Virus record (IMG/VR): IMGVR_UViG_3300027969_002881
Span: 32,001 to 96,000 of that record
Strand: one strand, 5' to 3'
Source: a virus
DNA: 64,000 nucleotides
Shown: positions 40,181-63,422 of the stretch, piece after piece
Layout of the letters: each line of letters opens with the position of its first letter
How positions within the stretch are numbered: the first letter of the stretch is position 1
Translations under genes and position numbers: made by a program
Notes under the pieces: model-generated
Databases searched by the model: none
Told to the model about the DNA's origin: nothing
The model's input: only the letters and a program-made list of their open reading frames with translations

Positions 40181-41352
40181 TTAAACTGTTCCTCAAATGC
40201 ATCATGTGTAGTGCCGCAAGTCTTGGCACATACTGCCAGTTTTCCTTCGGCACAGCTATTTTTATTCCAGCTATTAGGGATAATTTCCTGCATAAATTTA
40301 CCTTCAACAACATGCTTAATGCTATGTTGTTTCAAGTCAAGTGAATCTAAGCCAGCTTCATTGATAGCGTTCCATATTTGACCGCCCTTAGCTTTCCAAT
40401 ACCAAACATACATTTGACCAGCTGTCCAACAACACGGTTGTAAATATCCTTCAGCTGTGACATAAATGCTTTTCTCTTCTGCTACTTTACATTTGATAGG
40501 TACAGTGTCCCAATACTTTTCCATGGGCTTTTTCTTTTCTGGATCAGCGGTAAATTTTTGAGCACCAACTCGACCTTTTAATCCATTTACTGTAGTTATG
40601 AGATCATTTGGGTTTGTATTATCCTGTCTTTTAGCAATGTTTTCTAAATCTTTAATAGCGGCATTATGATATTTTGGATCAGTGGGCATTGTCAACAACG
40701 TAGTAGCAACTCCTTTGCGATTGCCAGCCTGATGGTCTTGTTTAACTTCGCCGCGAGTATTACTAAAAAATCTATTACTCTTTTTAATGTTAAACTTTTC
40801 AAAGCCCATCTTAGTTGCTAATGTCTGTGCTTCTTCTACTTGATGTTCATTGTGTGCAAATACAATATAGTCCCAACGTGCTCTGCCGCCCGCATCTATA
40901 AATGCCTGAGCATTTTCCATTATCTTAGTCCACACAGTTCCTTGACGATATAAATGATTAGTGTCTTCTAATCCATCTACGCCAAATATAACGTAACCTT
41001 TTTTTCCTATTACACCCGCAAGCTTGGCCCACCATTCAGGCTTTTTCATACTGCCATTTGTATGCATACTAAGATTAAGGCTTGAGTTATGTTCTCTAAA
41101 ATAAGCAAACGCTTCTAATGTATCTGCAGCTACGGCGGGATCACCATAGTTGCCGCACATATACAATCTGTTTAACTGTTTAATAAACTCTACAGGGAAT
41201 ATGTGTTTAATGTCAGCAATGCCGAGTTCTGCGCCGTGTAACAATGGGCTTACTTCGCCCCCATTTAAATTCCTAGCACACATAGGACAAGAGGCATTAC
41301 ATGCTTCTGTCATTTCTAAATGCACAGTGGTAATATCACTGTAATTATACAT
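40177..41352 (-). CDS. radical SAM protein 14
   Basis: CNASCPMC, MCGNYGDP, VDGLEDTNHLYR; PCCW...CAKTC. Confidence 0.93.
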   Translation of the reverse strand: MYNYSDITTVHLEMTEACNASCPMCARNLNGGEVSPLLHGAELGIADIKHIFPVEFIKQLNRLYMCGNYGDPAVAADTLEAFAYFREHNSSLNLSMHTNGSMKKPEWWAKLAGVIGKKGYVIFGVDGLEDTNHLYRQGTVWTKIMENAQAFIDAGGRARWDYIVFAHNEHQVEEAQTLATKMGFEKFNIKKSNRFFSNTRGEVKQDHQAGNRKGVATTLLTMPTDPKYHNAAIKDLENIAKRQDNTNPNDLITTVNGLKGRVGAQKFTADPEKKKPMEKYWDTVPIKCKVAEEKSIYVTAEGYLQPCCWTAGQMYVWYWKAKGGQIWNAINEAGLDSLDLKQHSIKHVVEGKFMQEIIPNSWNKNSCAEGKLAVCAKTCGTTHDAFEEQFK

Positions 41353-42209
41353 TATTTTACTCCGTAAAGAGCGTACCTTTTATATTTAGGAAATGTAATT
41401 TCTCCGCGATAGTAAATTGTTGTCATTGGATACTTTCTTAAAAAGTCTGGCAACGTTTCGGAGTAATTAATATGCTCTTCAATGGGATCGCTGTTATTTT
41501 CGATGAACACAGTTGTACCTGACTTTAATTTGTTAAACCATTCGGTGTCCATATGTTCACTGCTGGTATTGATAACCAAGTCTGCATCTAGAATCTTATC
41601 ATAGAAGGTTAGATTGTTTTCATGGTCAAAACAATCGTTGATAGATTTATTTTCAACGTAAGCATCTGGATTAATAATTTCTATCAATTCGTTGATACTA
41701 GCATCTGGATCAATGCTAAACAATTTGTTATAATTAATGTCTTTAAGATATAGGCTATGATGTGTTAGCCAGCCGCCGATTAATAATACGTTTGTAAAAT
41801 TTAAGTTAAACTTGGACAAAATTTCAGCCATCCATATCTTACTAAGTACTTGACTTTTAGAAAAAATTATAGGTAATACAACTTCGTAACCTTCATCGAT
41901 CATTTTAAAAAGTTTACGAATAAATTCATCTTCTGGCCATATAGAATATAAAGTACCAACAATATCTCTTGTAGTGACTTCGTCTAGTGAACATACATTT
42001 GTGTAAAAATTTAATCGATCTTCACGGAACGCTACTGGATACTTGTTATAGTCATCGGATATTAAATTTTTAAGAGACCATGGCTTTGATTGTTGATCTG
42101 CATATTTTAGATTTATAATATTTCTTATAAATTGCTTTTTTCTTACATCTTGTGTAAAATGAAAATATTTTTCTATTCCAAAAAGCCACGTGATTTTATC
42201 TGTGTCCAT
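41352..42209 (-). CDS. putative class I SAM-dependent methyltransferase
   Basis: VLLIGGW, SIDPD, DLVINTSSEHM. Confidence 0.6.
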   Translation of the reverse strand: MDTDKITWLFGIEKYFHFTQDVRKKQFIRNIINLKYADQQSKPWSLKNLISDDYNKYPVAFREDRLNFYTNVCSLDEVTTRDIVGTLYSIWPEDEFIRKLFKMIDEGYEVVLPIIFSKSQVLSKIWMAEILSKFNLNFTNVLLIGGWLTHHSLYLKDINYNKLFSIDPDASINELIEIINPDAYVENKSINDCFDHENNLTFYDKILDADLVINTSSEHMDTEWFNKLKSGTTVFIENNSDPIEEHINYSETLPDFLRKYPMTTIYYRGEITFPKYKRYALYGVK

Positions 42210-42882
42210 TTAATCCTATCCATTCTTTAAATTTATCTTCCAACCAAACAAAGTCATTGACTTTCATTGTATCATAGTCTTTGGATGCCCAAAGACATCC
42301 TTCTCTGGCGCCCTGTATCGCAAAATATCCATATTGTGTTTCTAATCCTGCTTCGCACCACATTGTTAAACGATCTTGACTTTCCTGGTCATTGTTGTTT
42401 TTATTAATGCCTGCGCTGAGTTTGACTGCTTCCCTAAATGCTGTGCGCCATGTACTATATGGTGTGTAATTAAAACGATGTTCGCTGGCCAGTATGTTTA
42501 GTTTTATATAACCATCTGCTAGAGTAGTTGTCATATCTGGCTTGTCTAGTCTCTCAGCACTAAAGCAATCTTTGCTAAACAATTTGATACCACCATGACC
42601 ATACACTAATCCATTAATAGGATTTTTAGCACGAAATACTGCTACATATTTTGGTTTGAGTTCTATTTGTTTATCAAATGTAAATCCGTCTACGATCCAG
42701 CAATCGGCATCAACTACATAAAATCTGTCAGTACCACATAAATTAGCAACGTGCTTATGACTTTCAAATATTGTACCCACGCTGGCCACTGCTTCGGCCC
42801 ATGGTGCAATAGATTGAAGTCTTTCCCAATTCTCATTAAGGTTGTCTTCGTCTGTGTATAGAAAATATACAGGTATATTCAT
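42196..42882 (-). CDS. GT-A-like (DxD) glycosyltransferase-like protein, paralog A
   Basis: VVDADC, NGLVYGHGGIKLF, WRTAFREAVKL; start reassigned to 42882. Confidence 0.6.
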   Translation of the reverse strand: MNIPVYFLYTDEDNLNENWERLQSIAPWAEAVASVGTIFESHKHVANLCGTDRFYVVDADCWIVDGFTFDKQIELKPKYVAVFRAKNPINGLVYGHGGIKLFSKDCFSAERLDKPDMTTTLADGYIKLNILASEHRFNYTPYSTWRTAFREAVKLSAGINKNNNDQESQDRLTMWCEAGLETQYGYFAIQGAREGCLWASKDYDTMKVNDFVWLEDKFKEWIGLNGHR

Positions 42883-42883
42883 A

Positions 42884-43909
42884 TCAGTACTTGGGTAAAG
42901 TAAATCCATATAATGGCAATGCGCTTTGATTTAATAACGCTGGCCAACCTACACCTTTGCCAGGACTGATATTCACATGTTTAAACCATTCACTTTGTTC
43001 AGCATCTAACTCCGCTAGCGGCAAGCCTAGACTGTCTTTTAAATCTGTTAATAATTTACGATTATGACTTTCTAGGTATTCCCCATGATTTAAAATTTGA
43101 GATTGTTGTTCCCAGAATGTGTTAAACCAATCATAGTCTGCAATTACTGTGTGATCGAAATTTTCTACATATAACTTATATGCCGCTAACCTTGCACCAT
43201 ATATAACCCAGGCACCATTTTCAATGTCTCGACCCACTGTCATCCATATTAACCAACGAGCATAATTAGCGGGATACATTTTATGTTTGAAATCTTCTAA
43301 TGGAACTTTGTTACCTTGGTCCAGGCCCATCTTAATACCTTCACGGAATCCTGCTCTAAATGATTGCTTGGCACTGGAGTTATTGTGAACAACGCCGTAT
43401 GTATTATTCATTTGCTTGTAGTTTTCAGGATCCCAGCAAAAGTCTACATTGTTTGTGCCATCTTCAGGGTTGGCAGCTTCATGACTTTTCATATTCATAA
43501 CATGTTCAGTATACCATAGTTTAACGCCGCCATTGCCGTATACTAATCCATTGACAATATTACGACTACTCCAACTTAATGTAGCTTCTGCGATATCAGG
43601 AGTGAGTTCAACGCTTTTAGACCATATAGCTTTGTCTACTTTACAGTCAGCATCTACTGTAAAAAATCTAGGAGCATTTGAAACTCGTCCAGCTTCTTTA
43701 TGGGCGGCGTCGAACCCTTTAACACCATGAACCCTGCGTATCTGTTGTGCGTTAGGATGATTGTCTAGCAAATATTGAAAGTTTTCATCTGCATTAGGTT
43801 CATCGTAACTTAAAAAGACTACAGGGATATCTTTTAATTTTAATAAGGGATTTGGTTCCGTCTTATTAACTTTTATAATTTTATTTCCTAGAGAATTTAG
43901 TAAACTCAT
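42884..43909 (-). CDS. GT-A-like glycosyltransferase-like protein, paralog B
   Basis: FLSYDEPNADEN, RVHGVKGFDAAH, TVDADC, NGLVYGNGGVKLW. Confidence 0.6.
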   Translation of the reverse strand: MSLLNSLGNKIIKVNKTEPNPLLKLKDIPVVFLSYDEPNADENFQYLLDNHPNAQQIRRVHGVKGFDAAHKEAGRVSNAPRFFTVDADCKVDKAIWSKSVELTPDIAEATLSWSSRNIVNGLVYGNGGVKLWYTEHVMNMKSHEAANPEDGTNNVDFCWDPENYKQMNNTYGVVHNNSSAKQSFRAGFREGIKMGLDQGNKVPLEDFKHKMYPANYARWLIWMTVGRDIENGAWVIYGARLAAYKLYVENFDHTVIADYDWFNTFWEQQSQILNHGEYLESHNRKLLTDLKDSLGLPLAELDAEQSEWFKHVNISPGKGVGWPALLNQSALPLYGFTLPKY

Positions 43910-44630
43910 TTTTCATCCATTCTAAATCATTAATAACACGCAAGGCTTCGACCTTGCCTGTATTTTTTAATCCATAGTTCCTGCCTTGTTTTGCACCGGC
44001 TATGGCATACTTACCAAAAGGTTGTTTTGCACCTTTAGTAGTCCATATTTTAAGACGTTGATTACTTTCTTCTACAACACGATTTATAGCTTCGTCGTTA
44101 TAGTTTAATTTATGCCTTAATTCTTCGTTGGTTAAATTAGAGGCTAGTTTAACACATTCGCGAAAGGCACTGCGCCACGTGCTAAACTCGTCATAGTTAA
44201 ATTTAGTAATATTACTTACTTGATCAAAGACTTTAATATTTAATCCAAATCCAGTGGTAAAGTCAACTGTGTCTGGATTTTTACTCAGTAAAGATTGCTT
44301 AGGTAACAGTTTAACGCCTCCGTGACCGTATGTCAAGTCATTTATAGGATTTATACTATTCCACAAACAGAGACATTCATTTTCTGGAATATCCCACCAC
44401 TTCTTATATTTACTGGGTGTAAAGAAAAAATCAAAGTCATTTAATATAATTGCATCGCTGTCTACTACATAAAAATTGTTAGTAAGACTACGACGAGCAC
44501 ATTCTTGATGTGCTGCCGTAAAACCAGTTATACCATTGACACGTCGAACATGTGGAACTTTCTCTTTAAGAAGTTCGTAATTTTCGTCAGCGTAAGGTTC
44601 GTTGTAACTAAGAAAGAAAACATCTAGCAT
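43881..44630 (-). CDS. GT-A-like glycosyltransferase-like protein, paralog C
   Basis: FLSYNEPYADEN, VVDSDA, YGHGGVKL, WRSAFRECVKL. Confidence 0.6.
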   Translation of the reverse strand: MLDVFFLSYNEPYADENYELLKEKVPHVRRVNGITGFTAAHQECARRSLTNNFYVVDSDAIILNDFDFFFTPSKYKKWWDIPENECLCLWNSINPINDLTYGHGGVKLLPKQSLLSKNPDTVDFTTGFGLNIKVFDQVSNITKFNYDEFSTWRSAFRECVKLASNLTNEELRHKLNYNDEAINRVVEESNQRLKIWTTKGAKQPFGKYAIAGAKQGRNYGLKNTGKVEALRVINDLEWMKNEFTKFSRK

Positions 44631-44638
44631 TATACGAG

Positions 44639-44654: not shown

Positions 44655-46127
44655 TCATGATAATACAGGTACATTGTATTTCTTGTAAAAGTCTTTGGCA
44701 TCTTTAAGATTGTTAACCATTGGCTGACCTTTGATGTTCAAGCTGGTATTCAATAACATTGGACAGCCAGTTTCACTGTACCAATTTTCTAATAGTTTAC
44801 GGAAGCCCGGGCTGTCATTTTTGCCCACTGTTTGTACACGACTTGTTCCGTCTTTGTGTATGATAGCAGGAAACTCGTCAGGTCGAGTACAACGAGCAAC
44901 AAACTGCATATATGGACTAGCGGTTATATTTGCGGGCATATCGAAATAGTCATGTACATGTTCTTCTAGGATTGCTGGTGCAAATGGTCTGAATTGCTGT
45001 CTTCGCTTGATTGCGTTGACTGTGTCTTTGATTTCGGAACCTCTAGGATCTGCCAATAAGCTTCGGTGCCCAAGAGCACGTGGTCCGAACTCAGCCTTGC
45101 CGCTAGCCACTCCCACAATTTTATCTCTTGTAAGTATACTAATAGTTTCATCAACTGGATATTCCTCGCCTATGTTTGTGCCGAGATATGCTCCTGGCCA
45201 CGTAACTTGCTCGCCAAAGAAAGCGGCCACTGCTCCGACACTACTTCCAGCATCTCCGGGGTTTGGCATAATCCAAACTCGGTCCCAGTCTCCTGTGATT
45301 TCACTGTTGGCCACACAGTTAAGAGCACAACCGCCCATTAATACAATGTTCTTGCTGGGCAAGTTTGCTCTAGCCCAACGACTAATACCTTGTAGTATTT
45401 CAGTGTACACTTGTTGAGTAGCGGCGGCTAAATCAAATGTATCTTGTTCGCTGAGTAAATCTAAACGCCAATCAGGACAGCCACGATGCAAGTTACGTTT
45501 AAACTTAATTTCGGGTCCGTTGATTACACTGAAGAAATCTTCGTATATATCGGCTTTGTATTTGTTGGGGTCACCGTATGCTGCCATGCCCATGAGAATA
45601 TATTCTTCTTCATTGGGTTTTAATCCTATACGTTGTGTCATAGCACTGAACCAAAGTCCTAGACTATCCGGATAACCTTGTGTATAGACTTTCTTTAAGT
45701 CATTGCCCTGACCTTGCCATACAGTAAGAGTTTCAAACTCGCCAATACTGTCAATAACGACAACTGTAGCATCACTTAATCCGCTGGTATAATATCCTGC
45801 GGCAGCATGACTTTTGTGATGTTCACCGAAGTGTAAAGATTGTGTTAAATTATATTTTGCAAGATACGTTTTAACATCATTTTCTTTAGTTCTGTCGCCT
45901 TGCCCTGCCATAAATTGTCTAGCAGTTTTTAAGTCAGGATTTTCATACCAAACAATTAAGTCTGGTTTTCCATACTGTTCAGCATCCTGTATAATACCTG
46001 CACACAAGTCGCCATCGTTTTTAATTCCGCTATATCGTTCGCTGTGTGCCGCAAATTGTAATTGTTTATCGTGCCAAACGCTAACGGCAGCGTCGTGACT
46101 GTTGGCACTAATTCCCCAAATATTCAT
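44655..46127 (-). CDS. O-carbamoyltransferase (NodU/CmcH/TobZ family)
   Basis: HDAA, ERYSGIK, HHKSHAA, EFGPRALGHRS, KRRQQFRPFAP, LNTSLN. Confidence 0.93.
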   Translation of the reverse strand: MNIWGISANSHDAAVSVWHDKQLQFAAHSERYSGIKNDGDLCAGIIQDAEQYGKPDLIVWYENPDLKTARQFMAGQGDRTKENDVKTYLAKYNLTQSLHFGEHHKSHAAAGYYTSGLSDATVVVIDSIGEFETLTVWQGQGNDLKKVYTQGYPDSLGLWFSAMTQRIGLKPNEEEYILMGMAAYGDPNKYKADIYEDFFSVINGPEIKFKRNLHRGCPDWRLDLLSEQDTFDLAAATQQVYTEILQGISRWARANLPSKNIVLMGGCALNCVANSEITGDWDRVWIMPNPGDAGSSVGAVAAFFGEQVTWPGAYLGTNIGEEYPVDETISILTRDKIVGVASGKAEFGPRALGHRSLLADPRGSEIKDTVNAIKRRQQFRPFAPAILEEHVHDYFDMPANITASPYMQFVARCTRPDEFPAIIHKDGTSRVQTVGKNDSPGFRKLLENWYSETGCPMLLNTSLNIKGQPMVNNLKDAKDFYKKYNVPVLS

Positions 46128-46267
46128 TTGTAAATAAAAGGGTCTCGTCGGCGTAGTTCTTCTAGGCGTTTTTTAAGTTGTTCTTCATATTGCAACTCTT
46201 CCTGTGTTTTTTGTTTTTCTTCGACAACAGGTTGTTGGTCGGGTTGTTGATTAGTATTGTTTTCCAT
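46124..46267 (-). CDS. 47-aa peptide (not in ORF track)
   Basis: hand-translated MENNTNQQPDQQPVVEEKQKTQEELQYEEQLKKRLEELRRRDPFIYK; ATGA-coupled to carbamoyltransferase. Confidence 0.75.
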   Translation of the reverse strand: MENNTNQQPDQQPVVEEKQKTQEELQYEEQLKKRLEELRRRDPFIYK

Positions 46268-46272
46268 AATAA

Positions 46273-46280
46273 TATTTATA
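46273..46280 (-). promoter_or_regulatory. T4-type late promoter TATAAATA
   Basis: exact consensus on - strand, 5 nt before ATG 46267. Confidence 0.65.
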
Positions 46281-46282: not shown

Positions 46283-46825
46283 TTAATTAGCAGAATATAA
46301 TTCAGGATATTCAACCAACACATGAATACCTTTTTGTTCGGTGGCTGTTTTATAAGCAGTGGAAATGTCTAAGGGGTTTTTTAAATCATAAAACTTAGTG
46401 TTTGGGCACATACTTTTAAATTCTTCAAAGTAGCTACCTTTATGTTGATGTCCAGGATCTAAGGGCTTGTCGCTGCCTTTGCCCAATCTAATCAATACAT
46501 GAGCTTCTTTGCCAGTCATTAATTCAAATTTGTCCAAGTGATTCACTAATTGATTTGTTGCGCTGATAACAAAATCCCATCTTGGATAAAAGCTAACAAC
46601 TGTTTTGCCGGCCATCGCCAAGCCTAAACTCATACCCATTTGTGTTTCTTCCATTACGGGGAGTTCAATCATTTTGTCCTTAGGCACATTGCCTAATGTT
46701 GTGCTCATTGGATTACCTGCGTAAACAATCTGTTGTCCAATAAAAAGAATATTGTCGTTAGCCGCTAGTACTGTCATAGCGGCAGTCAGTGCATCTTTAT
46801 ATGGCGTTAGTTGTGGTGTTGTCAT
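46283..46825 (-). CDS. ThDP-dependent E1 beta/transketolase pyrimidine-binding subunit (truncated, 180 aa)
   Basis: ELPVMEETQMGMSLGLA, DFVISATNQLVN, PGHQH. Confidence 0.85.
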   Translation of the reverse strand: MTTPQLTPYKDALTAAMTVLAANDNILFIGQQIVYAGNPMSTTLGNVPKDKMIELPVMEETQMGMSLGLAMAGKTVVSFYPRWDFVISATNQLVNHLDKFELMTGKEAHVLIRLGKGSDKPLDPGHQHKGSYFEEFKSMCPNTKFYDLKNPLDISTAYKTATEQKGIHVLVEYPELYSAN

Positions 46826-47687: not shown

Positions 47688-48103
47688 TTATTTCTATTTG
47701 GCCAACTAATTTCCCAGTCTTTAAAGTCTGCTGCCAAGCAGTCTACTTTATAGTCCTTACGTCCGCCAACGCTTTCTTGAATTACGTTTTTACTAGTATT
47801 ACGAATACCATTTAAGCCATGCGTTAATTCTAAGTTGTTGCCATCTTTAATGCCACGACGATAATTGCTTTCGTTGTGCCAAATATGTAAATTCATTTGG
47901 CTTACAACTACTATAGCGCGAATAACATCAGCAGTAACTTCTACATCTTTTTCTTCTAGTATTAGTTGAATATCATGTACAATGGCAGAAATTTCTTCAC
48001 TGTATTCTTGTTTGTGTTCAGGAATAAAAACTTCCTTAAGTTGAACGATGCTTAAACGATCGATCAAATCTCCTAGTGTATGCAAGTATTTTCTCTCAGT
48101 CAT
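47684..48103 (-). CDS. hypothetical protein (139 aa, helical)
   Basis: ORF coupled on both sides; TLGDLIDRLSIVQLKE start. Confidence 0.8.
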   Translation of the reverse strand: MTERKYLHTLGDLIDRLSIVQLKEVFIPEHKQEYSEEISAIVHDIQLILEEKDVEVTADVIRAIVVVSQMNLHIWHNESNYRRGIKDGNNLELTHGLNGIRNTSKNVIQESVGGRKDYKVDCLAADFKDWEISWPNRNK

Positions 48104-50024: not shown

Positions 50025-50025
50025 T

Positions 50026-57124: not shown

Positions 57125-57890
57125 TGTTAATATATGCATAATCGAATTTTGTTCTAAATTCTTTATTAAACTTGTTTTCCATGTTGATTTGACCCGTATA
57201 ATCGAAATTTCTATTCCACCTGTTTACATTTTTTCTTGTTTTAGTTGTGTTAAATCTAGGAAAAAATTCTTCAATGTATTTAAGATAAACATTCGTACTT
57301 GGGTGCCCGTCAACGTGTTGTATATCTTCCCAAAACGGACTATCGTAATATTGATTTTTCTTTTTCCATTCATCCAGAGTAATATCGACATCCAGTGTGT
57401 TATATATTTCATCAGCCATTGGTTGAATGAAATAACTGACATTGGCAGTGCCGTCGATATAAGCAGAATTGTCTATGCCCATAACTATATGATGTTTAAT
57501 GTTTTTTAATATTTGTTTGATTACTTTAACAGCTATCCAGGATTGATATACTGCCCAATCATCGCTCCACATATTTTTAACAAATTCAACAGTAACAGGA
57601 TCATTGGTATTTTGATTATAAGAATGCAAATCACCTTTTGTTTGCCAATTGGAATTCGGTGGCAGATAACTAAATCTTCCAAACCCAGTTAACATTACAA
57701 TAACAAAATCAGTATCTGGATTAAAGTTATACGTGTGATTAGCTTCTACTATTTTATTCATGATATAAATGTTAGAGCAGCCTGCACGACCATAATTGTA
57801 GTACTCTTCAAAATTTATACCAATTAAATCTGCCCATGTAGCATAAGCATAACTTGTATAACTGCAACCAAAGGCAAAACATCTTTTCAT
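57117..57890 (-). CDS. SGNH-like protein 5
   Basis: AFGCSYT, NYGRAGCSN, DGHP. Confidence 0.6.
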   Translation of the reverse strand: MKRCFAFGCSYTSYAYATWADLIGINFEEYYNYGRAGCSNIYIMNKIVEANHTYNFNPDTDFVIVMLTGFGRFSYLPPNSNWQTKGDLHSYNQNTNDPVTVEFVKNMWSDDWAVYQSWIAVKVIKQILKNIKHHIVMGIDNSAYIDGTANVSYFIQPMADEIYNTLDVDITLDEWKKKNQYYDSPFWEDIQHVDGHPSTNVYLKYIEEFFPRFNTTKTRKNVNRWNRNFDYTGQINMENKFNKEFRTKFDYAYINNG

Positions 57891-58774
57891 ATTAATTTAT
57901 TTACTAAGGGAAATAATATATCTTTACACCACACATCATAGCCTAGCTGACTTGGATGAAAGCCATCCTGTGCAAAGTATTCTCGATTATATTTAGTTTG
58001 TAAACTTTTTCTATTGTCGTGTGATAATAATATTGCGTCATCTTCAGAAACATCAATGAATTTATGTAAGTATTCAAACATGCCCTGAGATATTGTATTT
58101 GTATGATCAAACTGTTTGTACAAATAATTTACAATTTCATGATCTTTATGTTTAATAATATCTTCATATACATGCTTCATGAAGAATTGATTAATTAGTT
58201 TAATGCCATGTAACTTACAAAAGTTTTGAAGCATAATAATATTCTCTAAACTCGAGTGTGTTTTGCCAACACCATTAACTTCCTTATCCAGCAAATAATG
58301 CTGTTGTACAAAGTCTAAATTAGAGTCACTGCCATTAACAGTTAGATACCATCCACCGGATTTATTGTATTTGAATTCTGATCCGTTTTTGGTATAAAAT
58401 ATACCATCACCTTCTATATGATCATTGGTAAGATTCAAAAACTGATCAGTCATTCCACCGTAGAAGTCGGGCCAATCATTGACCATGCGTTCTATTACTA
58501 AGGGATTATCGACAAACCAAGATTTTCTGCTGGTTCCACTCCACATCACGACAACTAATATTTTATTTTTATTAATGCCTGATTCAATGGCAGATAATAT
58601 AGCAGACATTACACGCTTTTGTATAAGCTCTTGTCCACTACTATTTCGACCTGTGTGATTTGTAGTTAAGTTATGATTTTTTGAACGCAATAACTGTGTA
58701 ATGCCACCTACCCAGCCGTTGTCATCGTCACCGGTACTAAAACTACACCCTCCGGTGATTAAATGCCGAATCAT
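57887..58774 (-). CDS. SGNH-like protein 6
   Basis: TGGCSFS, DGFHPS. Confidence 0.6.
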   Translation of the reverse strand: MIRHLITGGCSFSTGDDDNGWVGGITQLLRSKNHNLTTNHTGRNSSGQELIQKRVMSAILSAIESGINKNKILVVVMWSGTSRKSWFVDNPLVIERMVNDWPDFYGGMTDQFLNLTNDHIEGDGIFYTKNGSEFKYNKSGGWYLTVNGSDSNLDFVQQHYLLDKEVNGVGKTHSSLENIIMLQNFCKLHGIKLINQFFMKHVYEDIIKHKDHEIVNYLYKQFDHTNTISQGMFEYLHKFIDVSEDDAILLSHDNRKSLQTKYNREYFAQDGFHPSQLGYDVWCKDILFPLVNKLI

Positions 58775-59436
58775 ATTAATCTAATATCTCTTAAGAATAA
58801 TTTTATTTTCCTAGCTAGTTCAGCATGTGCTTCTTCGTTGGGGTGATACCCATCTTTACATTTCATATCTTTTTCTGTGCAATAAACATTGAATATAGAT
58901 TTATCATGTCCCAATACAAATTTCTTTGTAGGTAGTAATTTAATTAAATTCTTGTATTGATCTTCAAATGGTTCTCTGTCTAAGTAGCCTTCTAAGAACG
59001 AGTTAACAAATGCATACTGTATATTTCTAGATTCTAGGAAAGATGATACAAAGATTTGTTGCATGTAATATTCCATTAGGCCTTCATAGTCATTATACAT
59101 GTGTTCATACCACACATCTTTCATTTTTTTAAGATATGGTTCGTAAGGATCATGACCCAGTAATACATTTTCCCATATTTTCTTTTCTGGAAAATAAACT
59201 GCTGTGCGTGAAATACCAGTCCAGGAAAACACAACTAATGTTTTTTCGGGATTAGGTATATCAGCATAATCGTTCAGCAAATTTATTATGCTGAGTTTAT
59301 TCGATCCGCCTGGTATACCTCTATTGGTCACTGGCGTTTTCATTAATTCACCTAGTTTGGCAGGCCAGGCGTCGCTGTTTGCTACTCCATCGCCAGCTGT
59401 AAAGCTGTCTCCATATGCATAAATCTTATCGATCAT
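58771..59436 (-). CDS. SGNH-like protein 7
   Basis: AYGDSFTAG, NRGIPGGSN, DGYHPNEEAH. Confidence 0.75.
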   Translation of the reverse strand: MIDKIYAYGDSFTAGDGVANSDAWPAKLGELMKTPVTNRGIPGGSNKLSIINLLNDYADIPNPEKTLVVFSWTGISRTAVYFPEKKIWENVLLGHDPYEPYLKKMKDVWYEHMYNDYEGLMEYYMQQIFVSSFLESRNIQYAFVNSFLEGYLDREPFEDQYKNLIKLLPTKKFVLGHDKSIFNVYCTEKDMKCKDGYHPNEEAHAELARKIKLFLRDIRLI

Positions 59437-60871
59437 TTTCCCTATATACTCCTATTTCGGCAAAAGATATTCCGGATTGCTCGACTAATTTAATAATCTC
59501 ATAATTTTTATTAAGTTCTATACTTTCATACCAATCAGCAATTTCCGGAAAAGTATTAATTATGTTTTTGTTTCTTCTAGCATCATACTGCGAATAGAAA
59601 CTCTTAAAGTCATGAAACAATGCAGACTTATCATGCGTAGTAGATACATGTCCAGTTTGAACAACTTCTAAATAGTCAATTAGTCTTTTGATACTGGCTT
59701 TCTCACCAGCTTCTAAATACTGACTATCTTTGTGTAAATCATACCACGTAGATAGTCTTGATTGAACTTCGTCTTTGAGATCGTTGGGCAATGTAATTGG
59801 ACTCATGTATGCAGGCCAGCGCAGTATGTTTAGATCCAGATAAGGTCTATTATTGCCGTACTTTGCTTTGAGTTCCAGCATATCGTCCATGAACTCAGTG
59901 ATACTGAACAAACACAGATTAGATATCGTCATCATGATTGTGACATTTCTAAATTTAGCATTTTCAATAAAGTTAACCAAGTTACTGCGCCATACTTGAT
60001 AGTCCATGCCATCACGTAGATACTCTGCATGTAAGCCGAAGCTTTCATTACTGGTAAACAAATCAAATTCTCTAACTGGCAGTGTTTTAGTTACTTCAAT
60101 TAATCGTTCCAGTGCCCTAGGGCTTGATCCAAGATTACTGTTAACCGCAAAGCGGATGTCCACGTATTCATGCTGTTGCATTATTTCAATAAAGCGCCAG
60201 AAGTTTTGACTTACTGTGCATTCTCCGCCGGTGATACGTAGCTCTTGTAGGCTCTTAGATAATTCAGGCCACCATTCAAAGAAAGCTTCTACATAAGGAT
60301 TGTCATCTAAATGTTTTCCATATGCTGTACTCCAAGAACCATCAGTTTGGTATGCGCCACCACCACCACCTTGGGCAATAAAATTCTGGTAAGGTCCATT
60401 CTTATTAATGTCCTGACTCCATGCTGTGCTGTAACCTGCGTTACAGTAACTACAAGCAAAATTACATTGTCTATCGAAACTGATCTCTAATGTTTTGAGA
60501 TTAACATCGTCAGCCCAGTTCATGTCCTGGATCTTTTTAATATCTTCTGCGCTGTATATAATACTTTTATTAATACGATCACTGATATTATCTCTGCCAA
60601 TGCCTTCTACTTTCCAACAATAGCCGCACTCTGCTGGCTTTTTGCCTTCCAGCATCATCTTACGCATACGCTTTTTATGATCAGTGTTATGTAATGCGCT
60701 GGGATTATAACTGATTTCACTGACATCAATTGAATGAGGCAAAGGCAAATGACAACTACCTGTATAGCCTGATCCTAAAAAGATACTGGCGTTATACCAT
60801 TTGGCCGCGCAAAAGCTAGGACTGATCGAGTTGAGATTCTCATCTCTCCATTTAATTAAGTCATCAGACAT
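59426..60871 (-). CDS. radical SAM protein 15
   Basis: CNFACSYC, ITGGE; FCAAKW...SCH...CGYC. Confidence 0.92.
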   Translation of the reverse strand: MSDDLIKWRDENLNSISPSFCAAKWYNASIFLGSGYTGSCHLPLPHSIDVSEISYNPSALHNTDHKKRMRKMMLEGKKPAECGYCWKVEGIGRDNISDRINKSIIYSAEDIKKIQDMNWADDVNLKTLEISFDRQCNFACSYCNAGYSTAWSQDINKNGPYQNFIAQGGGGGAYQTDGSWSTAYGKHLDDNPYVEAFFEWWPELSKSLQELRITGGECTVSQNFWRFIEIMQQHEYVDIRFAVNSNLGSSPRALERLIEVTKTLPVREFDLFTSNESFGLHAEYLRDGMDYQVWRSNLVNFIENAKFRNVTIMMTISNLCLFSITEFMDDMLELKAKYGNNRPYLDLNILRWPAYMSPITLPNDLKDEVQSRLSTWYDLHKDSQYLEAGEKASIKRLIDYLEVVQTGHVSTTHDKSALFHDFKSFYSQYDARRNKNIINTFPEIADWYESIELNKNYEIIKLVEQSGISFAEIGVYRENDR

Positions 60872-62441
60872 CTTTGTTAACTACCTTTTGTTTCATCTCT
60901 TTACAGATGTTATAAAATTCTGTGTACTCTGGATATACTTCTAAAAAGTTCGTACCATAGCGACGATCTAAATCATTGACAAAGTCATAGAACTTGGCAC
61001 GATTTAGTGCAAAATCTTTATTGCCTTCCAAATCATTTTTAGAATTGTAAGTGATATTCAAACATACACGCTTGAACTTTTCCAGCTCGAACTCTTCAAA
61101 AGCATGATGCATTTTCCAAGTCTTAACTTGTGTGGTATGATCCGCCATGTAGTTGATACTTGGTATCAAATACTCTTGAATAAGATCTTTACTGGCCCAT
61201 TGTGCATCTAAGAACGTGGGGTTGCGTAAATAAGGTAAGTCAATGCCATTGATACTAGGATGACTTGTAGTCTTTTTATCTCTATCTGTGTACGACTCTC
61301 CTGGCCAAGCAAAGTTAAAACCTGTTTCTTTTTCCCACATTTTTGCAATTGTTGGATTGGGGTTATATTTCTTTCTAAGTTCAAGCTGCCACTCAAATAA
61401 TTTTTGTATGCTGGAAATACTCAGAATGTTAAACGTAACCATTGTGGTAATTCTAATATTGCCCATTTGCATGATTTGTTCGTAACGCTTGCAGAACTTT
61501 TCAAAGTCCAGGCCTGGGCGTAAGTATTCAGCACGTTCACCCCAACCATCGACACTGGTAAAGATAGTTAGTTTCTTAATATAGTTACCACGACTTAAAA
61601 TCTCAGCACGTTCAATGAACTTGTCCCACAACTTATCAGGTACGCCCAAGTTAGTATTAATACTAAGTTCGAGTTCTGGATTCGGATTATCAATAAACCA
61701 ATCCATACTTTTATATGTTTCTTTACTTAACAGTGGCTCGCCACCTGTAATACGAAACACATGTAAGTGTTTGTAAGCTTCAGGCCACCATTTCCAAAAT
61801 GCGTCAATATAAGGATTGAATTCGTTGTTCTTATAACTTAAACTATCTAAGTCGGGTTGCCAGCCCTGTGCCCATACGGTATGATCTGTATTTTCCAACA
61901 ACTTAACTGGACCATTTTGTTTTAGTTCTTCTACCCACTTGCTACTGTACTCAGGGCCACAGTATACGCATTTAAAGTTACATACATTACTAAAGTCTAC
62001 TTCGAGATAGCTTGGGTAAAAGTCTTTGTTAGGATCACTGGCTTGAACTTCATCATGCTTTTCTAATGCCCATGGTTCTAAACTCTTGTAGAATCTATCA
62101 CTGGGACTTTTGTTATCTTCAACACGCCAGCAGTAGTCACATTCACTTGGGCGTTGACCTTCCAACATTTCTTTTCTAGCTTGTTTAAGTATACTGGTAT
62201 TAAACAATGCTCCTGGATTCTTTTGTATTTCTGCCAATGGAATCTTATGTGGCACTGGATGGTGACAACTGTGTGTCATTCCTGTACCCAGGTGCATGGT
62301 AACTTGTGTAAACTTTGCCAAGCAAAAACCTGGACCAGTGCTGTCTAATAGTTCTTTTGTTTTGTCAATATTTGGTCCTGTACGAGCAACTTTATTATCA
62401 TATCCGATATCCCAATTGATATCGCTGAGTTTCTTTTTCAT
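60864..62441 (-). CDS. radical SAM protein 16
   Basis: CNFKCVYC, ITGGEP; FCLAKF...SCHH...CDYC; paralog of 59426..60871. Confidence 0.93.
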   Translation of the reverse strand: MKKKLSDINWDIGYDNKVARTGPNIDKTKELLDSTGPGFCLAKFTQVTMHLGTGMTHSCHHPVPHKIPLAEIQKNPGALFNTSILKQARKEMLEGQRPSECDYCWRVEDNKSPSDRFYKSLEPWALEKHDEVQASDPNKDFYPSYLEVDFSNVCNFKCVYCGPEYSSKWVEELKQNGPVKLLENTDHTVWAQGWQPDLDSLSYKNNEFNPYIDAFWKWWPEAYKHLHVFRITGGEPLLSKETYKSMDWFIDNPNPELELSINTNLGVPDKLWDKFIERAEILSRGNYIKKLTIFTSVDGWGERAEYLRPGLDFEKFCKRYEQIMQMGNIRITTMVTFNILSISSIQKLFEWQLELRKKYNPNPTIAKMWEKETGFNFAWPGESYTDRDKKTTSHPSINGIDLPYLRNPTFLDAQWASKDLIQEYLIPSINYMADHTTQVKTWKMHHAFEEFELEKFKRVCLNITYNSKNDLEGNKDFALNRAKFYDFVNDLDRRYGTNFLEVYPEYTEFYNICKEMKQKVVNKDV

Positions 62442-62450
62442 ATTTTGCCT

Positions 62451-63422
62451 TTAATTTATGCTGTTATCTACTTGGCTCTCTTTGACCAGAGCACCTAACC
62501 TTGGAGGGTTAATAAAACTCTCCTTAAACATTCTACTGCCATTGGCATCCAATTCTGCAACCTCTAAGTTTAATTTTGTTCTTAATTCTTGACCGAATTT
62601 GTAAATTTCTTTTTTTAGTTTTTCAGAATCATAGTTCCAGCCTGTGGCATTACATCTGCCGCCTTCTCCTTTGAACTGGGGTTGAATACTTTCTTTCCAG
62701 AAGTTATCATGCCAGTCAAAGTCTCTACAATCCGTAAAATCAAAACTGTCTTTAGCAAGATTAGTTAAGTAAGCGCCAAGTCTAGTGCCGAACATTGCCC
62801 AGGCGCCGTTCTCCACATCGGCTCCAACACTACTCCAAACTAAGAATCTTTTATAATTGCGTTCATGTACTTGTTCTTTTAAACGTCTAGGGTCAACAGT
62901 TACACCGCCATTAAGCAACAGCTTAACGCCTTCACGAAATCCTGCTCTATATGCTTGATATGCACTGGCATTATTATGTACATCACAGTAAATATTATTC
63001 ATTTGGAAATAATAAATGTCCCAACAGAAATCAACTTTTGCTTTTGGATCATCTGCATTTTCGTGAGTACGCATTTGTTCTACTACATGCTTGGGCCACA
63101 TCTTAATGCCGCCGTTACCGTATACCAATCCGTTGATTGCGTTTTTACCGGCCCAACTGACAATATCATGATGACCAATTTTACTCATATCTAATTCAAG
63201 ACCAAAGAAATCATCACGAACAATGTTATCTGCATCAATGGTAATGAAGCGATCTGTTTCAGCCACTCTTGCGGCTTCCTTGTGTGCATTATCAAACCCC
63301 TTAACACCATGTACACGTTTGGCCCATGGGGCTTTTTCTAATAGGTTTGCATAATTCTTATCTGCATTTGGTTCATCGTAACTTAAAAATACGATATCAA
63401 AACTGGTAATAGGTACTGACAT
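62451..63422 (-). CDS. GT-A-like glycosyltransferase-like protein, paralog D
   Basis: FLSYDEPNADKN, RVHGVKGFDNAH, TIDADN, NGLVYGNGGIK; start reassigned to 63422. Confidence 0.6.
   Translation of the reverse strand: MSVPITSFDIVFLSYDEPNADKNYANLLEKAPWAKRVHGVKGFDNAHKEAARVAETDRFITIDADNIVRDDFFGLELDMSKIGHHDIVSWAGKNAINGLVYGNGGIKMWPKHVVEQMRTHENADDPKAKVDFCWDIYYFQMNNIYCDVHNNASAYQAYRAGFREGVKLLLNGGVTVDPRRLKEQVHERNYKRFLVWSSVGADVENGAWAMFGTRLGAYLTNLAKDSFDFTDCRDFDWHDNFWKESIQPQFKGEGGRCNATGWNYDSEKLKKEIYKFGQELRTKLNLEVAELDANGSRMFKESFINPPRLGALVKESQVDNSIN

What the first reader, a model, noticed from the sequence alone, without database searches (positions are those of the whole stretch)
41352..63422. Integrated glycan-building module resembling an oligosaccharide natural-product toolkit
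The block holds three NDP-sugar SDRs, an RmlC-like epimerase, an E1 alpha/beta pair, a carbamoyltransferase, methyltransferases, four GT-A-like and three GT-B-like proteins and SGNH-like proteins, with 2OG oxygenases and radical SAMs upstream. Orthosomycin (avilamycin) biosynthesis uses the same enzyme classes, including E1-like AviB1/B2, radical SAM AviX12 and 2OG oxygenases (established). The analogy is mine and implies a heavily decorated, possibly branched-sugar glycan made by a phage.
Basis: partly seen in the sequence, partly recalled or inferred. Interest (0 to 1): 0.8.

Follow-up and report, generated by a model that had tools for sequence, protein, structure and literature searches.

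The report
Phage sugar-coat factory with hidden peptide
A giant uncultured phage carries, behind its tail genes, a 22-kb block of soluble enzymes that make, transfer and decorate an unusual sugar; the block also hides a tiny conserved peptide gene that appears to be the partner of its carbamoyltransferase.

Summary
Window 41352-63434 (minus strand) is one tightly packed gene run with three extended SDRs, an FkbM-methyltransferase/RmlC fusion, a minimal ThDP E1 alpha (209 aa) and beta (180 aa), a NodU/TobZ-type carbamoyltransferase, four SGNH-like proteins and two N-twitch radical SAM enzymes. It also holds two paralogue families with no Pfam match.

The sugar-making core is syntenic in about 70 of 77 related viral contigs at 65-79% identity, while the transferases are only 34-43% identical. 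Bacteria and archaea carry the E1/SDR/RmlC core, but the GT-B family is almost only viral.

No gene in the block is membrane-bound. It lies downstream of baseplate, giant virion protein and fibre-like genes, behind T4-type late-promoter motifs. I favour glycosylation of the phage's own virion; the target is unproven.

The orthosomycin analogy holds only at enzyme-class level. New here: a 47-aa gene ending in RDPFIYK sits directly before the carbamoyltransferase. The two travel together across viral contigs and are predicted to bind (0.70 vs best control 0.02).

This scan had already found the cassette on other DNA.

The parts
41352..42209 (-). 285-aa protein, candidate class I SAM methyltransferase
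   Evidence: No Pfam, PHROG or NCBIfam hit. Rossmann-like VLLIGGW...SIDPD motif. Atlas look-alikes are viral clusters named class I methyltransferase (a lead only). Present in 21-23 related loci.
42196..42909 (-). GT-A-like paralogue 1 (237 aa)
   Evidence: Paralogue of the other three (E 1e-19 to 1e-34). DAD at residue 67.
42884..43909 (-). GT-A-like paralogue 2 (341 aa)
   Evidence: 44% identical to w62451-63434. DAD at residue 86. More than 6,300 metagenomic homologues, mostly about 535-aa tandem forms, a few carrying PF00535 or PF13641.
43881..44630 (-). GT-A-like paralogue 3 (249 aa)
   Evidence: DSD at residue 57.
44655..46127 (-). Carbamoyltransferase of the NodU/TobZ/NovN family (490 aa)
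   Evidence: Pfam Carbam_trans_C and Carbam_trans_N, both above cut-off. PDB: NovN 4e-60, GdmN 2e-50, TobZ 2e-38. 47% identical to Ralstonia phage RsoM2USA gp199.
46127..46267 (-).
   Evidence: Translation. The motif occurs in 39 of 77 viral loci, always on the cassette strand and at the end of the ORF. It ends a short ORF in 80 of 80 loci picked by DNA pattern. A carbamoyltransferase lies directly downstream in 39 of 58 such loci. Predicted complex with the carbamoyltransferase scores 0.70 against 0.02 for the best control.
46273..46280 (-). TATAAATA, a T4-type late-promoter-like motif just upstream of the peptide gene
   Evidence: Only 2 copies in the window against 11 +/- 3.4 expected. 4 of the 6 genome copies lie in short intergenic gaps upstream of same-strand genes.
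46283..46825 (-). Minimal ThDP E1 beta (Pyr domain only, 180 aa)
   Evidence: Transket_pyr E 2.9e-7. PDH E1 beta NCBIfam E 3e-9. Aligns to residues 236-398 of the fused S-SM2 protein. Adjacent to E1 alpha in 75 of 80 cellular loci.
46827..47687 (-). SGNH-like protein (286 aa)
   Evidence: GCSFTWG near the N-terminus and DLHP near the C-terminus. No Pfam hit. Present in 36-41 related loci.
47684..48103 (-). 139-aa protein of unknown fold, the most conserved gene of the cassette
   Evidence: Median 79% identity in 46 loci. Viral clusters only in the Atlas. No PDB hit with a 12-row profile.
48100..49035 (-). Extended SDR 1 (311 aa), epimerase/reductase type
   Evidence: Pfam Epimerase E 6e-34. 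YAQTK present, no TDE dehydratase motif. Below every NCBIfam equivalog cut-off.
49032..50036 (-). Extended SDR 2 (334 aa), closest to GDP-L-fucose synthase
   Evidence: Fcl E 1e-39, 136 bits against a 500-bit cut-off.
50026..51012 (-). Extended SDR 3 (328 aa), closest to GDP-L-fucose synthase
   Evidence: Fcl E 1e-35.
50997..52442 (-). GT-B paralogue 1 (481 aa)
   Evidence: 38% identical to paralogue 2. ETS...SEK motif.
52420..53829 (-). GT-B paralogue 2 (469 aa), the modelled member
   Evidence: Model m041996aaebb1, pLDDT 93. Nearly all top structural matches are GT-B enzymes. 1,290 homologues, all unnamed. No match in 50,697 phage records.
53814..54443 (-). Minimal ThDP E1 alpha (PP domain only, 209 aa)
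   Evidence: E1_dh E 1.4e-13. Human PDH E1 alpha E 1e-8. GD...x27...EDN ThDP motif. 40% identical to residues 7-199 of the fused S-SM2 protein.
54453..55706 (-). FkbM methyltransferase (N-terminal) fused to an RmlC-like cupin epimerase (C-terminal)
   Evidence: Only the RmlC half (residues 238-417) is conserved in distant loci.
55703..57139 (-). GT-B paralogue 3 (478 aa)
   Evidence: ETY...TEK motif. Present in 72 loci at a median of 43% identity.
57117..57890 (-). SGNH-like protein (257 aa)
   Evidence: FGCSYT and DGHP motifs.
57887..58774 (-). SGNH-like protein (295 aa)
   Evidence: GGCSFSTG and DGFHP motifs. Weak DUF6071 hit.
58771..59436 (-). SGNH/DUF6071 hydrolase or acyltransferase (221 aa)
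   Evidence: DUF6071 35 bits, above its cut-off; GDSL hits. GDSFTAG and DGYHP motifs.
59426..60871 (-). N-terminal-twitch radical SAM enzyme (481 aa)
   Evidence: NF033640 286 bits against a 170-bit cut-off. CNFACSYC motif. 50% identical to RsoM2USA gp202.
60864..62441 (-). N-terminal-twitch radical SAM enzyme (525 aa), cassette core member
   Evidence: NF033640 310 bits. Present in 61-64 related loci.
62451..63434 (-). GT-A-like paralogue 4 (327 aa), the modelled member
   Evidence: Model m20f125aad81a, pLDDT 90. Residues 5-175 have a GT-A fold. DAD at residue 67.
63397..64000 (-). 321-aa protein of unknown function, running off the window end
   Evidence: No Pfam or PHROG hit. Found only in the closest relatives.

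Best explanation
The region is a late-expressed, fully soluble, phage-encoded pathway that makes an unusual activated sugar, transfers it and decorates the product. It has four layers.

1. Conserved donor-making core: an RmlC-like epimerase, three extended SDRs, a minimal ThDP E1 alpha/beta enzyme and a 139-aa unknown protein. This core probably takes a host NDP-4-keto sugar, epimerises it, adds a two-carbon branch from a 2-keto acid such as pyruvate, and reduces it (inferred).
2. Fast-evolving transferases: three virus-specific GT-B enzymes and four GT-A enzymes. They put the sugar on a cytoplasmic acceptor, most likely the phage's own virion proteins (the fibre-like and giant baseplate-linked proteins encoded just upstream) (inferred).
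3. Tailoring enzymes: an FkbM O-methyltransferase, a second methyltransferase-like protein, four SGNH-type acyl transferases or esterases, and two N-twitch radical SAM enzymes. These modify the glycan (inferred).
4. A separate two-gene unit: a 47-aa peptide ending in RDPFIYK plus the carbamoyltransferase. The enzyme binds, and probably carbamoylates, the peptide tail rather than a sugar (supported by co-occurrence and by a predicted complex; the chemistry is not shown).

My odds: glycan-building module 0.85; virion proteins as acceptor 0.45; peptide as functional partner of the carbamoyltransferase 0.7.
For: - Enzyme identities.
- GT folds.
- One gene run: genes overlap or abut, and the only gap over 30 nt in the region (155 nt) holds the peptide gene.
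- Conservation: in 77 viral loci the order rSAM, GT-B, RmlC, E1 alpha, GT-B, SDR3, SDR2, SDR1, 139-aa protein, E1 beta recurs.
- Donor enzymes conserved, transferases divergent: median identity is 65-79% for donor-making enzymes, 34-43% for GTs and 36% for the neighbouring fibre-like protein. This is the pattern expected if the sugar is fixed and the acceptor varies.
- The cassette crosses phage lineages. It also occurs in 145-238-kb phages related to Microcystis phage Mel-JY01 and Flavobacterium phage immuto, whose gp6 is only about 30% identical.
- E1 alpha and beta work together: they are fused in cyanophage S-SM2 and adjacent in 75 of 80 cellular loci, next to SDR and RmlC genes.
- Cytoplasmic target: no membrane-spanning protein anywhere in the block.
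- Virion link: the same strand upstream holds a gp25-like gene, a 1155-aa gp6-like baseplate wedge, a 2844-aa virion structural protein and a fibre-like protein. Fibre-like and GT-A-like neighbours recur in other loci.
- Late timing: TATAAATA motifs are depleted overall and sit before the head of the block and before the peptide gene.
- Peptide unit. All 20 carbamoyltransferase-bearing loci have the peptide. In a sample chosen by the peptide alone, the carbamoyltransferase is directly downstream in 39 of 58 loci, while E1/SDR genes are rare (1-7 of 80).
- Predicted complex: ipSAE 0.70, best control 0.02. That mark was reached by 58 of 80 solved complexes and 2 of 110 mismatched pairs. Runs agree in at least 94% of contacts; partner pLDDT is at least 65; my own alignments were used.
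- In that model peptide residues 43-47 touch residues of the enzyme's N-terminal half (Pfam Carbam_trans_N), next to columns invariant in my alignment: H11, D12, D126, S161, G216.
- Precedent for carbamoyl transfer to a conserved protein C-terminus: HypF/HypE (PMC12130793).
Against: - No acceptor is shown.
- No nucleotidyltransferase or 4,6-dehydratase was found, so the donor nucleotide and the starting sugar are unknown.
- Only 35% of the genome is in hand.
- Only one member of each GT family was modelled. Structural Z scores of 9-11 show fold, not activity.
- The GT-A N-domain fold is shared with nucleotidyltransferases.
- The published reading of similar islands is host O-chain modification (PMC7029224).
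- Top GT-B matches include the two T4 DNA glucosyltransferases.
- The late-promoter reading assumes that this phage uses a T4-type late sigma factor, which I did not test.
- The complex prediction could lean on memory of solved HypE-HypF complexes.
Confidence: 0.55

Rival explanations
1. Host envelope remodelling. The enzymes alter the infected cell's O-antigen or capsule (serotype conversion, exclusion of competing phages), as proposed for the glycosyltransferase-rich islands of pelagimyophages.
For: This is the published interpretation for similar islands (PMC7029224). The E1/SDR/RmlC core has 45-58% identical homologues in bacterial and archaeal genomes, typically next to other sugar genes.
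Against: There is no initiating phosphoglycosyltransferase, flippase, polymerase, ligase or any membrane protein in about 55 kb. The block sits in the virion-gene run behind late-type promoter motifs, which is late for superinfection exclusion. The GT-B family is almost absent from cellular loci (3 of 80, and those carry the viral-type cassette).
Confidence: 0.15
2. Peptide-anchored product. The 47-aa peptide is the common substrate. It is carbamoylated, worked on by radical SAM enzymes and possibly glycosylated, giving a RiPP-like glycopeptide or a modified assembly factor.
For: The peptide is tightly coupled to the carbamoyltransferase and is predicted to bind it. Where the carbamoyltransferase is absent, the peptide gene is followed directly by a GT-B gene. 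The cultured phage RsoM2USA has N-twitch rSAM, SGNH, peptide and carbamoyltransferase together, with no sugar core within 9 kb. The best Foldseek match of the GT-A model is the peptide S-glycosyltransferase SunS. Twitch/SPASM radical SAM enzymes often mature peptides (NCBIfam secondary hits).
Against: About half of the cassette loci lack the peptide within the sequence available. In the peptide-chosen sample, GT and sugar genes are uncommon (11-16 and 1-7 of 80), so glycosylation of the peptide is not implied. The conserved tail offers only Tyr and Lys as nucleophiles. No protease, leader-recognition domain or exporter was found.
Confidence: 0.2
3. DNA hypermodification. The GTs glycosylate a modified base in phage DNA, and the other enzymes decorate that sugar.
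For: T4 beta- and alpha-glucosyltransferases are among the best GT-B structural matches (Z 11.1 and 9.9). Phage GTs put mono- to trisaccharides on 5hmC, sometimes near structural genes (bioRxiv 10.1101/2023.12.21.572611).
Against: The block is not next to replication or nucleotide-metabolism genes but inside the baseplate/fibre run. FUT9, EXT1, POGLUT and GtfC score about as well as the DNA enzymes.
Confidence: 0.07
4. A free orthosomycin-like oligosaccharide antibiotic is made and released by the infected cell.
For: There is class-level overlap only: an E1 alpha/beta pair (AviB1/B2, PMC4753412), a radical SAM enzyme (the AviX12 citation is seen), methyltransferases and many GTs.
Against: No aglycone or polyketide gene turned up among the block's genes that were scanned, and no exporter or other membrane protein. 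No 2OG oxygenase lies inside the region. The block has a conserved tie to virion genes. Homology to the Avi proteins was not tested.
Confidence: 0.03

Closest known systems
Host recognition cluster (HRC) of pelagimyophages and cyanomyophages (Zaragoza-Solas et al. 2020, PMC7029224)
   Same: A large variable island inside the structural module, next to a giant structural gene and tail fibres. It is rich in glycosyltransferases, sugar genes and radical SAM cassettes. Cyanophage S-SM2 has the fused E1 enzyme in a sugar/heptose cluster.
   Different: That paper describes gene classes only and proposes host O-chain modification. It does not define this conserved cassette, the GT-B family or the peptide-carbamoyltransferase pair. 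The present phage is a jumbo myophage whose baseplate wedge protein is nearest to those of Atu_ph07, GAP32 and PA5oct. The GT-B family is absent from all 50,697 deposited phage records.
AviB1/AviB2 and Pau11/Pau12, E1-like pairs proposed to add a C-4 acetyl branch to octoses of avilamycin and paulomycin (PMC4753412)
   Same: A two-subunit PDH-E1-like ThDP enzyme with no E2/E3 partner found in the scanned block, sitting among NDP-sugar enzymes.
   Different: The phage subunits are pared down (209 and 180 aa, PP and Pyr domains only) and encoded 7 kb apart. Sequence relatedness to the Avi and Pau proteins was not tested. The Avi/Pau role is itself described as proposed in the cited paper.
Virus-encoded virion glycosylation (mycobacteriophage capsid and tail-tube glycans; chlorovirus PBCV-1 A64R; mimivirus fibril glycans)
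   Same: Soluble virus-encoded GTs, with or without sugar-nucleotide enzymes, acting in the cytoplasm on virion proteins. PBCV-1 A64R and mimivirus R699 and R655 are among the structural matches of the GT-A model. The mycobacteriophage case is cited in PMC12619734.
   Different: Those systems are smaller or belong to eukaryotic viruses. None is reported with a ThDP branching enzyme, N-twitch radical SAM enzymes or four SGNH proteins. Virion glycosylation is not shown here.
HypF-HypE carbamoyl transfer to a conserved C-terminal motif
   Same: Carbamoyl transfer to the conserved C-terminal tail (PRIC) of a partner protein (PMC12130793). From my own knowledge, HypF uses the same YrdC-like plus Kae1-like enzyme class. 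Here the RDPFIYK tail is predicted to enter the enzyme's N-terminal half.
   Different: The partner is a 32-47-aa peptide without cysteine. The enzyme is closest to the small-molecule O-carbamoyltransferases NovN, GdmN and TobZ. No chemistry is shown.

Membership tests
GT-A fold glycosyltransferases (GT2-like) | N-terminal alpha/beta/alpha nucleotide-sugar-binding domain | tested here: met
   Model pLDDT 90. Residues 5-175 align to B4GALNT1 (Z 10.8, rmsd 2.9, 139 aligned), STIV A197 (9.9), SunS (9.3) and SpsA (9.1). Only one of the four paralogues was modelled.
GT-A fold glycosyltransferases (GT2-like) | DxD metal and nucleotide-sugar motif | tested here: met
   D86 and D88 are invariant in the 4-paralogue alignment; D(A/S)D is found in all four.
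GT-A fold glycosyltransferases (GT2-like) | Match to a curated GT family profile (PF00535 or PF13641) | tested here: inconclusive
   The window's four proteins have no Pfam hit at E up to 10, and there is no PF00535 match in the genome. A few of the 120 listed homologues carry PF00535 or PF13641. Nucleotidyltransferases share the fold.
GT-B fold glycosyltransferases | Two Rossmann-like domains with an inter-domain cleft | tested here: met
   Model pLDDT 93. The top 50 structural matches are mainly GT-B enzymes: T4 BGT Z 11.1 (297 aligned), Actinobacillus glucosyltransferase 11.0, FUT9 10.2, EXT1 10.1.
GT10 fucosyltransferases | Match to PF00852 and the ENS...YxTEK donor motif | tested here: inconclusive
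   An ET(S/Y)...(S/T)EK motif is present in all three paralogues, and FUT9 and other alpha1,3-fucosyltransferases score Z about 10. PF00852 gave nothing, but it also rang in no control genome.
E1-type ThDP enzyme (alpha2beta2, AviB1/B2-like sugar-branching pair) | ThDP-binding GDG...N motif in the alpha (PP) subunit | tested here: met
   GD-x27-EDN at residues 137-167. It is invariant in 9 homologues. E1_dh E 1.4e-13.
E1-type ThDP enzyme (alpha2beta2, AviB1/B2-like sugar-branching pair) | Pyr-domain beta subunit that pairs with alpha | tested here: met
   Transket_pyr is above its cut-off (30.8 vs 27 bits). Alpha and beta are fused in S-SM2 SSM2_198 and adjacent in 75 of 80 cellular loci. Physical binding was not modelled.
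E1-type ThDP enzyme (alpha2beta2, AviB1/B2-like sugar-branching pair) | Sequence relatedness to AviB1/AviB2 or Pau11/Pau12, and C2 transfer to an NDP-4-keto sugar | not tested
   No tool gave me the Avi or Pau sequences. The activity needs an enzyme assay.
RmlC (dTDP-4-dehydrorhamnose 3,5-epimerase) | Cupin domain matching the family profile at equivalog level | tested here: not met
   Pfam dTDP_sugar_isom 113.8 bits is above the family cut-off. TIGR01221 scores 114 bits, below its 155.75 equivalog cut-off. It is therefore a member of the cupin sugar-epimerase family, not a proven RmlC.
NodU/TobZ O-carbamoyltransferases | Both Pfam carbamoyltransferase domains (Carbam_trans_N and Carbam_trans_C) with their conserved motifs | tested here: met
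   Both Pfam domains are far above cut-off. HD, HHxxH, D126, PxSLG and D292 are invariant in my alignment and align with NovN and GdmN.
NodU/TobZ O-carbamoyltransferases | A sugar or small-molecule hydroxyl as the acceptor | not testable with these tools
   Genomic coupling and a predicted complex point instead to the 47-aa peptide.
N-terminal twitch radical SAM (NF033640) | Score above the curated cut-off, a CxxxCxxC cluster and an N-terminal Cys-rich domain | tested here: met
   286 and 310 bits against a 170-bit cut-off. CNFACSYC and CNFKCVYC motifs, with four Cys in the first 110 residues. Nine copies in the genome are above the cut-off.
SGNH hydrolase/acyltransferase | Block I GDS(L)-type serine and block V DxxH | tested here: met
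   w58771-59436 has GDSFTAG and DGYHP, and DUF6071 is above its cut-off. w57887-58774 has GGCSFS and DGFHP. The other two have GCS plus DxH variants, seen by eye only.
Orthosomycin (avilamycin/everninomicin) gene cluster | Orthoester-forming 2OG oxygenases, an orsellinate-type polyketide synthase, a halogenase, and resistance or export genes | tested here: not met
   Pfam scans of the block's genes found none of these inside w41352-63434. The only 2OG enzyme found is an Asp/Asn beta-hydroxylase at w23840-24577. There are no membrane proteins. The list of defining features is from my own knowledge.
HRC-type island of aquatic T4-like myophages | A variable island within the structural module, next to a giant structural gene and fibres, with GTs, sugar genes and radical SAM cassettes | tested here: met
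   Upstream on the same strand lie gp25-like and gp6-like baseplate genes, a 2844-aa virion protein and a fibre-like protein. See the description in PMC7029224. The downstream boundary (gp14) was not examined.

The most novel reading that the evidence does not exclude
The whole block works on the 47-aa RDPFIYK micro-protein. The carbamoyltransferase, the N-twitch radical SAM enzymes and the GT-A and GT-B transferases build a carbamoylated, radical-modified, branched-sugar glycopeptide. This would be a phage-made RiPP-like glycoconjugate, produced late in infection for the virion or for release at lysis.
Probability: 0.15. Interest if true: 0.9.

Novelty: new variant of a known kind. Interest (0 to 1): 0.7.

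Why it matters
Phage-encoded 'LPS genes' in aquatic myophages have been catalogued for twenty years without a defined pathway, product or target. This window holds a cassette recurring across viral contigs (359 relatives in IMG/VR; same gene order in about 70 of the 77 loci examined) with three notable features:
- the donor-sugar enzymes are strongly conserved;
- the transferases are virus-specific and fast-evolving;
- every component is soluble.

That pattern predicts that large phages coat their own particles, probably their fibres, with a rare branched sugar. If so, it would affect host range, phage-phage competition and recognition by grazers or immune systems.

The minimal E1 alpha/beta enzyme is also shared with SAR11, Chloroflexota, CPR bacteria and DPANN archaea. 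Solving its chemistry would therefore annotate a sugar pathway in some of the most abundant microbes.

The small RDPFIYK peptide paired with a carbamoyltransferase gives a first testable partner for the peptide-linked members of a phage 'auxiliary' gene class whose substrate has never been shown. A cultured phage that carries the pair (Ralstonia phage RsoM2USA) is available for testing.

Tried and rejected
Searches that found nothing or were inconclusive:
- Megablast of the 22-kb region against deposited phages: no match.
- tblastn of a GT-B paralogue and of a related locus's version of the peptide (L046) against deposited phages: no match.
- Pfam at E up to 10, PHROGs and NCBIfam on the ten unannotated ORFs: nothing usable.
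- PDB sequence or profile searches with the GT-A family, the GT-B family, the 139-aa protein and a radical SAM enzyme: nothing significant.
- Whole-fragment searches for NTP_transferase, GT2, GT10, thymidylate synthase and TET/JBP: none found. The fragment is only 35% of the genome, and the GT10 and TET searches rang in no control genome, so these results are uninformative.
- The giant virion protein was not found in five other cassette-bearing records.
- Atlas look-ups gave leads only.
- Literature searches for phage N-twitch radical SAM enzymes and for radical SAM modification of fibres found no functional study.

Ideas I considered and dropped:
- The small ORF as a frameshifted N-terminus of the carbamoyltransferase. 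The enzyme is full length against NovN and GdmN, and the peptide also occurs without it.
- The small ORF as a C-terminal extension of E1 beta. It has its own start codon and a promoter-like motif.

Full report
**What the DNA is.** The window is bases 32001-96000 of a 127,886-bp IMG/VR virus record judged about 35% complete, which implies a genome of roughly 350 kb. A minus-strand gene run reaches from about w16489 past the window end to genome position 115,625. At its upstream end lie a gp25-like baseplate protein, a 1155-aa gp6-like wedge protein, a 2844-aa virion structural protein and a fibre-like 319-aa protein. The wedge protein is 34-42% identical to those of the jumbo myophages Atu_ph07, SCTP-2, GAP32 and PA5oct. 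The phage assignment is therefore sound.

**Checking the observation.** Pfam and NCBIfam confirm these classes:
- three extended SDRs;
- an FkbM-methyltransferase/RmlC fusion;
- a 209-aa E1 alpha-like and a 180-aa E1 beta-like protein;
- a NodU/TobZ-type carbamoyltransferase;
- an SGNH/DUF6071 protein;
- two radical SAM enzymes of the N-terminal-twitch family NF033640.

Ten ORFs had no hit in any profile library.

**Are the paralogue families glycosyltransferases?** Both families have thousands of unnamed metagenomic relatives.
- GT-B family: the AlphaFold model (pLDDT 93) matches mainly GT-B glycosyltransferases. T4 beta-glucosyltransferase scores Z 11.1, FUT9 10.2 and EXT1 10.1. All three paralogues keep an ET(S/Y)...(S/T)EK motif like the donor motif of GT10 enzymes.
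- GT-A family: the model (pLDDT 90) has a GT-A N-domain. B4GALNT1 scores Z 10.8, STIV A197 9.9, and SunS, SpsA, PBCV-1 A64R and mimivirus R699 score 8.5-9.3. All four paralogues keep a DxD motif.

Three further ORFs carry SGNH block I and block V-like motifs, which makes four SGNH-like genes. The 285-aa ORF at the 3' end of the region looks like a class I methyltransferase, but only by motif and an Atlas lead.

**Conservation.** A scan of IMG/VR with the GT-B profile found 359 relatives, and 77 loci were examined. About 70 of them share the order radical SAM, GT-B, RmlC, E1 alpha, GT-B, SDR3, SDR2, SDR1, 139-aa protein, E1 beta. Median identity to the window's proteins is:

| Protein | Median identity |
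|---|---|
| 139-aa unknown | 79% |
| E1 alpha | 74% |
| SDR1 | 74% |
| RmlC | 69% |
| SDR3 | 68% |
| E1 beta | 67% |
| SDR2 | 65% |
| GT-B proteins | 37-43% |
| GT-A proteins | 34-39% |
| Fibre-like neighbour | 36% |

The cassette also sits in complete 202-238-kb phages whose gp6 is only about 30% identical. Their nearest cultured relatives are Microcystis phage Mel-JY01 and Flavobacterium phage immuto. Either the cassette moves between lineages or it is under strong selection. No deposited phage genome has the GT-B family. Cyanophages S-SM2 and P-TIM68 have the E1 enzyme, fused in S-SM2, inside sugar/heptose clusters.

**Cellular relatives.** E1 alpha homologues at 45-59% identity occur in Pelagibacter (including a 1.3-Mb contig), Chloroflexota, CPR bacteria, DPANN archaea and others. 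E1 beta is adjacent in 75 of 80 loci, and SDR1, SDR3, RmlC and SDR2 homologues lie nearby. The GT-B family, the 139-aa protein and the N-twitch radical SAM enzymes are almost absent there. The two long loci that show the GT-B genes (L084 and L160) carry the viral-type cassette. The donor pathway is therefore cellular in origin, and the transfer and tailoring layers are viral.

**Likely mechanism.**
- No SDR has the TDE signature of a 4,6-dehydratase, and no nucleotidyltransferase is on the fragment. I therefore infer that the pathway starts from a host NDP-4-keto sugar.
- SDR2 and SDR3 are closest to GDP-fucose synthase. Some related loci carry RfaE-like kinase and adenylyltransferase genes after E1 beta. 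A GDP- or heptose-type donor is possible.
- The E1 pair has the ThDP motif and the Pyr domain but no E2/E3 partner among the scanned genes. This matches the class proposed to add a C-4 acetyl branch in avilamycin and paulomycin (PMC4753412).
- Every step of this chemistry is inferred.

**Likely target.** Nothing in the block is membrane-bound. That argues against a self-sufficient envelope-polysaccharide pathway and for a cytoplasmic acceptor. Three observations favour virion proteins:
- the block's place behind the baseplate and fibre genes;
- the recurrence of fibre-like and GT-A-like neighbours in other loci;
- two TATAAATA motifs in the right places. The motif is depleted overall, and 4 of its 6 genome copies sit just upstream of same-strand genes.

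I put virion proteins at 0.45. The published view of similar islands is host O-chain modification (PMC7029224). DNA glycosylation is a further rival.

The only gap in the region (155 nt) holds a 47-aa ORF that starts right after a TATAAATA motif and ends at the carbamoyltransferase start codon.
- Its C-terminus...EL(K/R)(K/R)RDPF(I/V)Y(K), is invariant, while the N-terminal part varies.
- RDPF[IV]Y occurs once, on the cassette strand and within 3 residues of a stop, in 39 of 77 viral loci. It occurs in only 2 of 80 'cellular' loci, and both of those carry the viral-type cassette.
- All 20 carbamoyltransferase-bearing loci have it.
In all 80 loci returned, the motif ends a short ORF of roughly 32-70 aa (one of 95).
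- In that sample a carbamoyltransferase homologue lies directly downstream in 39 of the 58 loci that have enough sequence, and anywhere in 64 of 80. E1 and SDR genes are rare there.
- A complex prediction with my own alignments gave ipSAE 0.70 (runs 0.73, 0.70, 0.65) against 0.02 for the best control. That mark was reached by 58 of 80 solved complexes and 2 of 110 mismatched pairs. The runs agree in at least 94% of contacts, and the partner's pLDDT is at least 65.
- In the model, peptide residues 43-47 lie in the N-terminal half of the enzyme (Pfam Carbam_trans_N), next to invariant residues. HypE-HypF complexes have been solved, to my knowledge, so some of the score may come from memory of those structures.
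- The cultured Ralstonia jumbo phage RsoM2USA has an unannotated ORF ending in KQDPFIYK. It lies between an N-twitch radical SAM/SGNH gene pair and a carbamoyltransferase 47% identical to this one, with no sugar core within 9 kb.

I conclude that the carbamoyltransferase belongs to a separate peptide-centred unit and probably does not decorate the glycan. HypF acting on the C-terminal motif of HypE is the precedent (PMC12130793).

**Comparison and novelty.** The general phenomenon is described for pelagimyophages and cyanomyophages (PMC7029224). A T4-like marine genome with 12 radical SAM genes has also been noted (PMC5332604). Virion glycosylation by virus-encoded enzymes is known for mycobacteriophages, chloroviruses and mimiviruses. 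In the papers I could search, I found no description of this defined cassette, of the minimal E1 enzyme in it, of the virus-only GT-B family or of the peptide-carbamoyltransferase pair. Earlier follow-ups in this scan reached similar conclusions on other genomes. I rate it a new variant of a known kind.

Noticed in passing
window 17750-41352 and 59426-62441: There are sixteen radical SAM genes. Nine score above the NF033640 (N-terminal twitch) cut-off, and none of 14 control genomes reaches it. Their substrates are unknown.
   Followed up: partly
L165 (Ralstonia phage RsoM2USA, MG752970) about 8020-8130, between RsoM2USA_201 and _200: An unannotated small ORF ends in ...IRKQDPFIYK. It follows an N-twitch radical SAM gene and an SGNH gene, and lies one gene before the carbamoyltransferase RsoM2USA_199. 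This gives a cultured system for testing the peptide unit.
   Followed up: partly
genome 96363-98091 (just beyond the window end; L004:363-2091, minus strand): Two more unannotated genes (279 and 298 aa) head the block. The 298-aa one has DVD and DTD motifs and an N-terminus typical of GT-A enzymes, and it recurs in 17 related loci next to the fourth GT-A paralogue. It was not modelled.
   Followed up: no
genome-wide; window 14407-14414 (+), 46273-46280 (-); genome 10677 (+), 98475 (-): TATAAATA is about five-fold depleted, and four of its six copies sit 13-153 nt upstream of same-strand gene starts. This suggests T4-type late promoters in a jumbo phage. I did not search for a gp55-like sigma factor.
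   Followed up: partly
L059, L062, L064, L068, downstream of E1 beta: In loci that lack the peptide gene, E1 beta is followed by RfaE-like cytidylyl/adenylyltransferase (HxGH) and sugar-kinase genes. This hints that the donor may derive from a heptose.
   Followed up: no
L220 (IMG/VR 3300031519_000718), about 6960-7270: One peptide variant is 95 aa long. It has a Cys/His-rich N-terminal part before the same KKRDPFIYK tail.
   Followed up: no
window 23035-24577: A nitroreductase-family gene (minus strand) lies back to back with an Asp/Asn beta-hydroxylase gene (plus strand), in the middle of the radical SAM array.
   Followed up: no
window 42196-44630 against the homologues: Most metagenomic relatives of the GT-A family are about 535-aa tandem duplications. 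In this phage the two half-types are separate neighbouring genes.
   Followed up: partly
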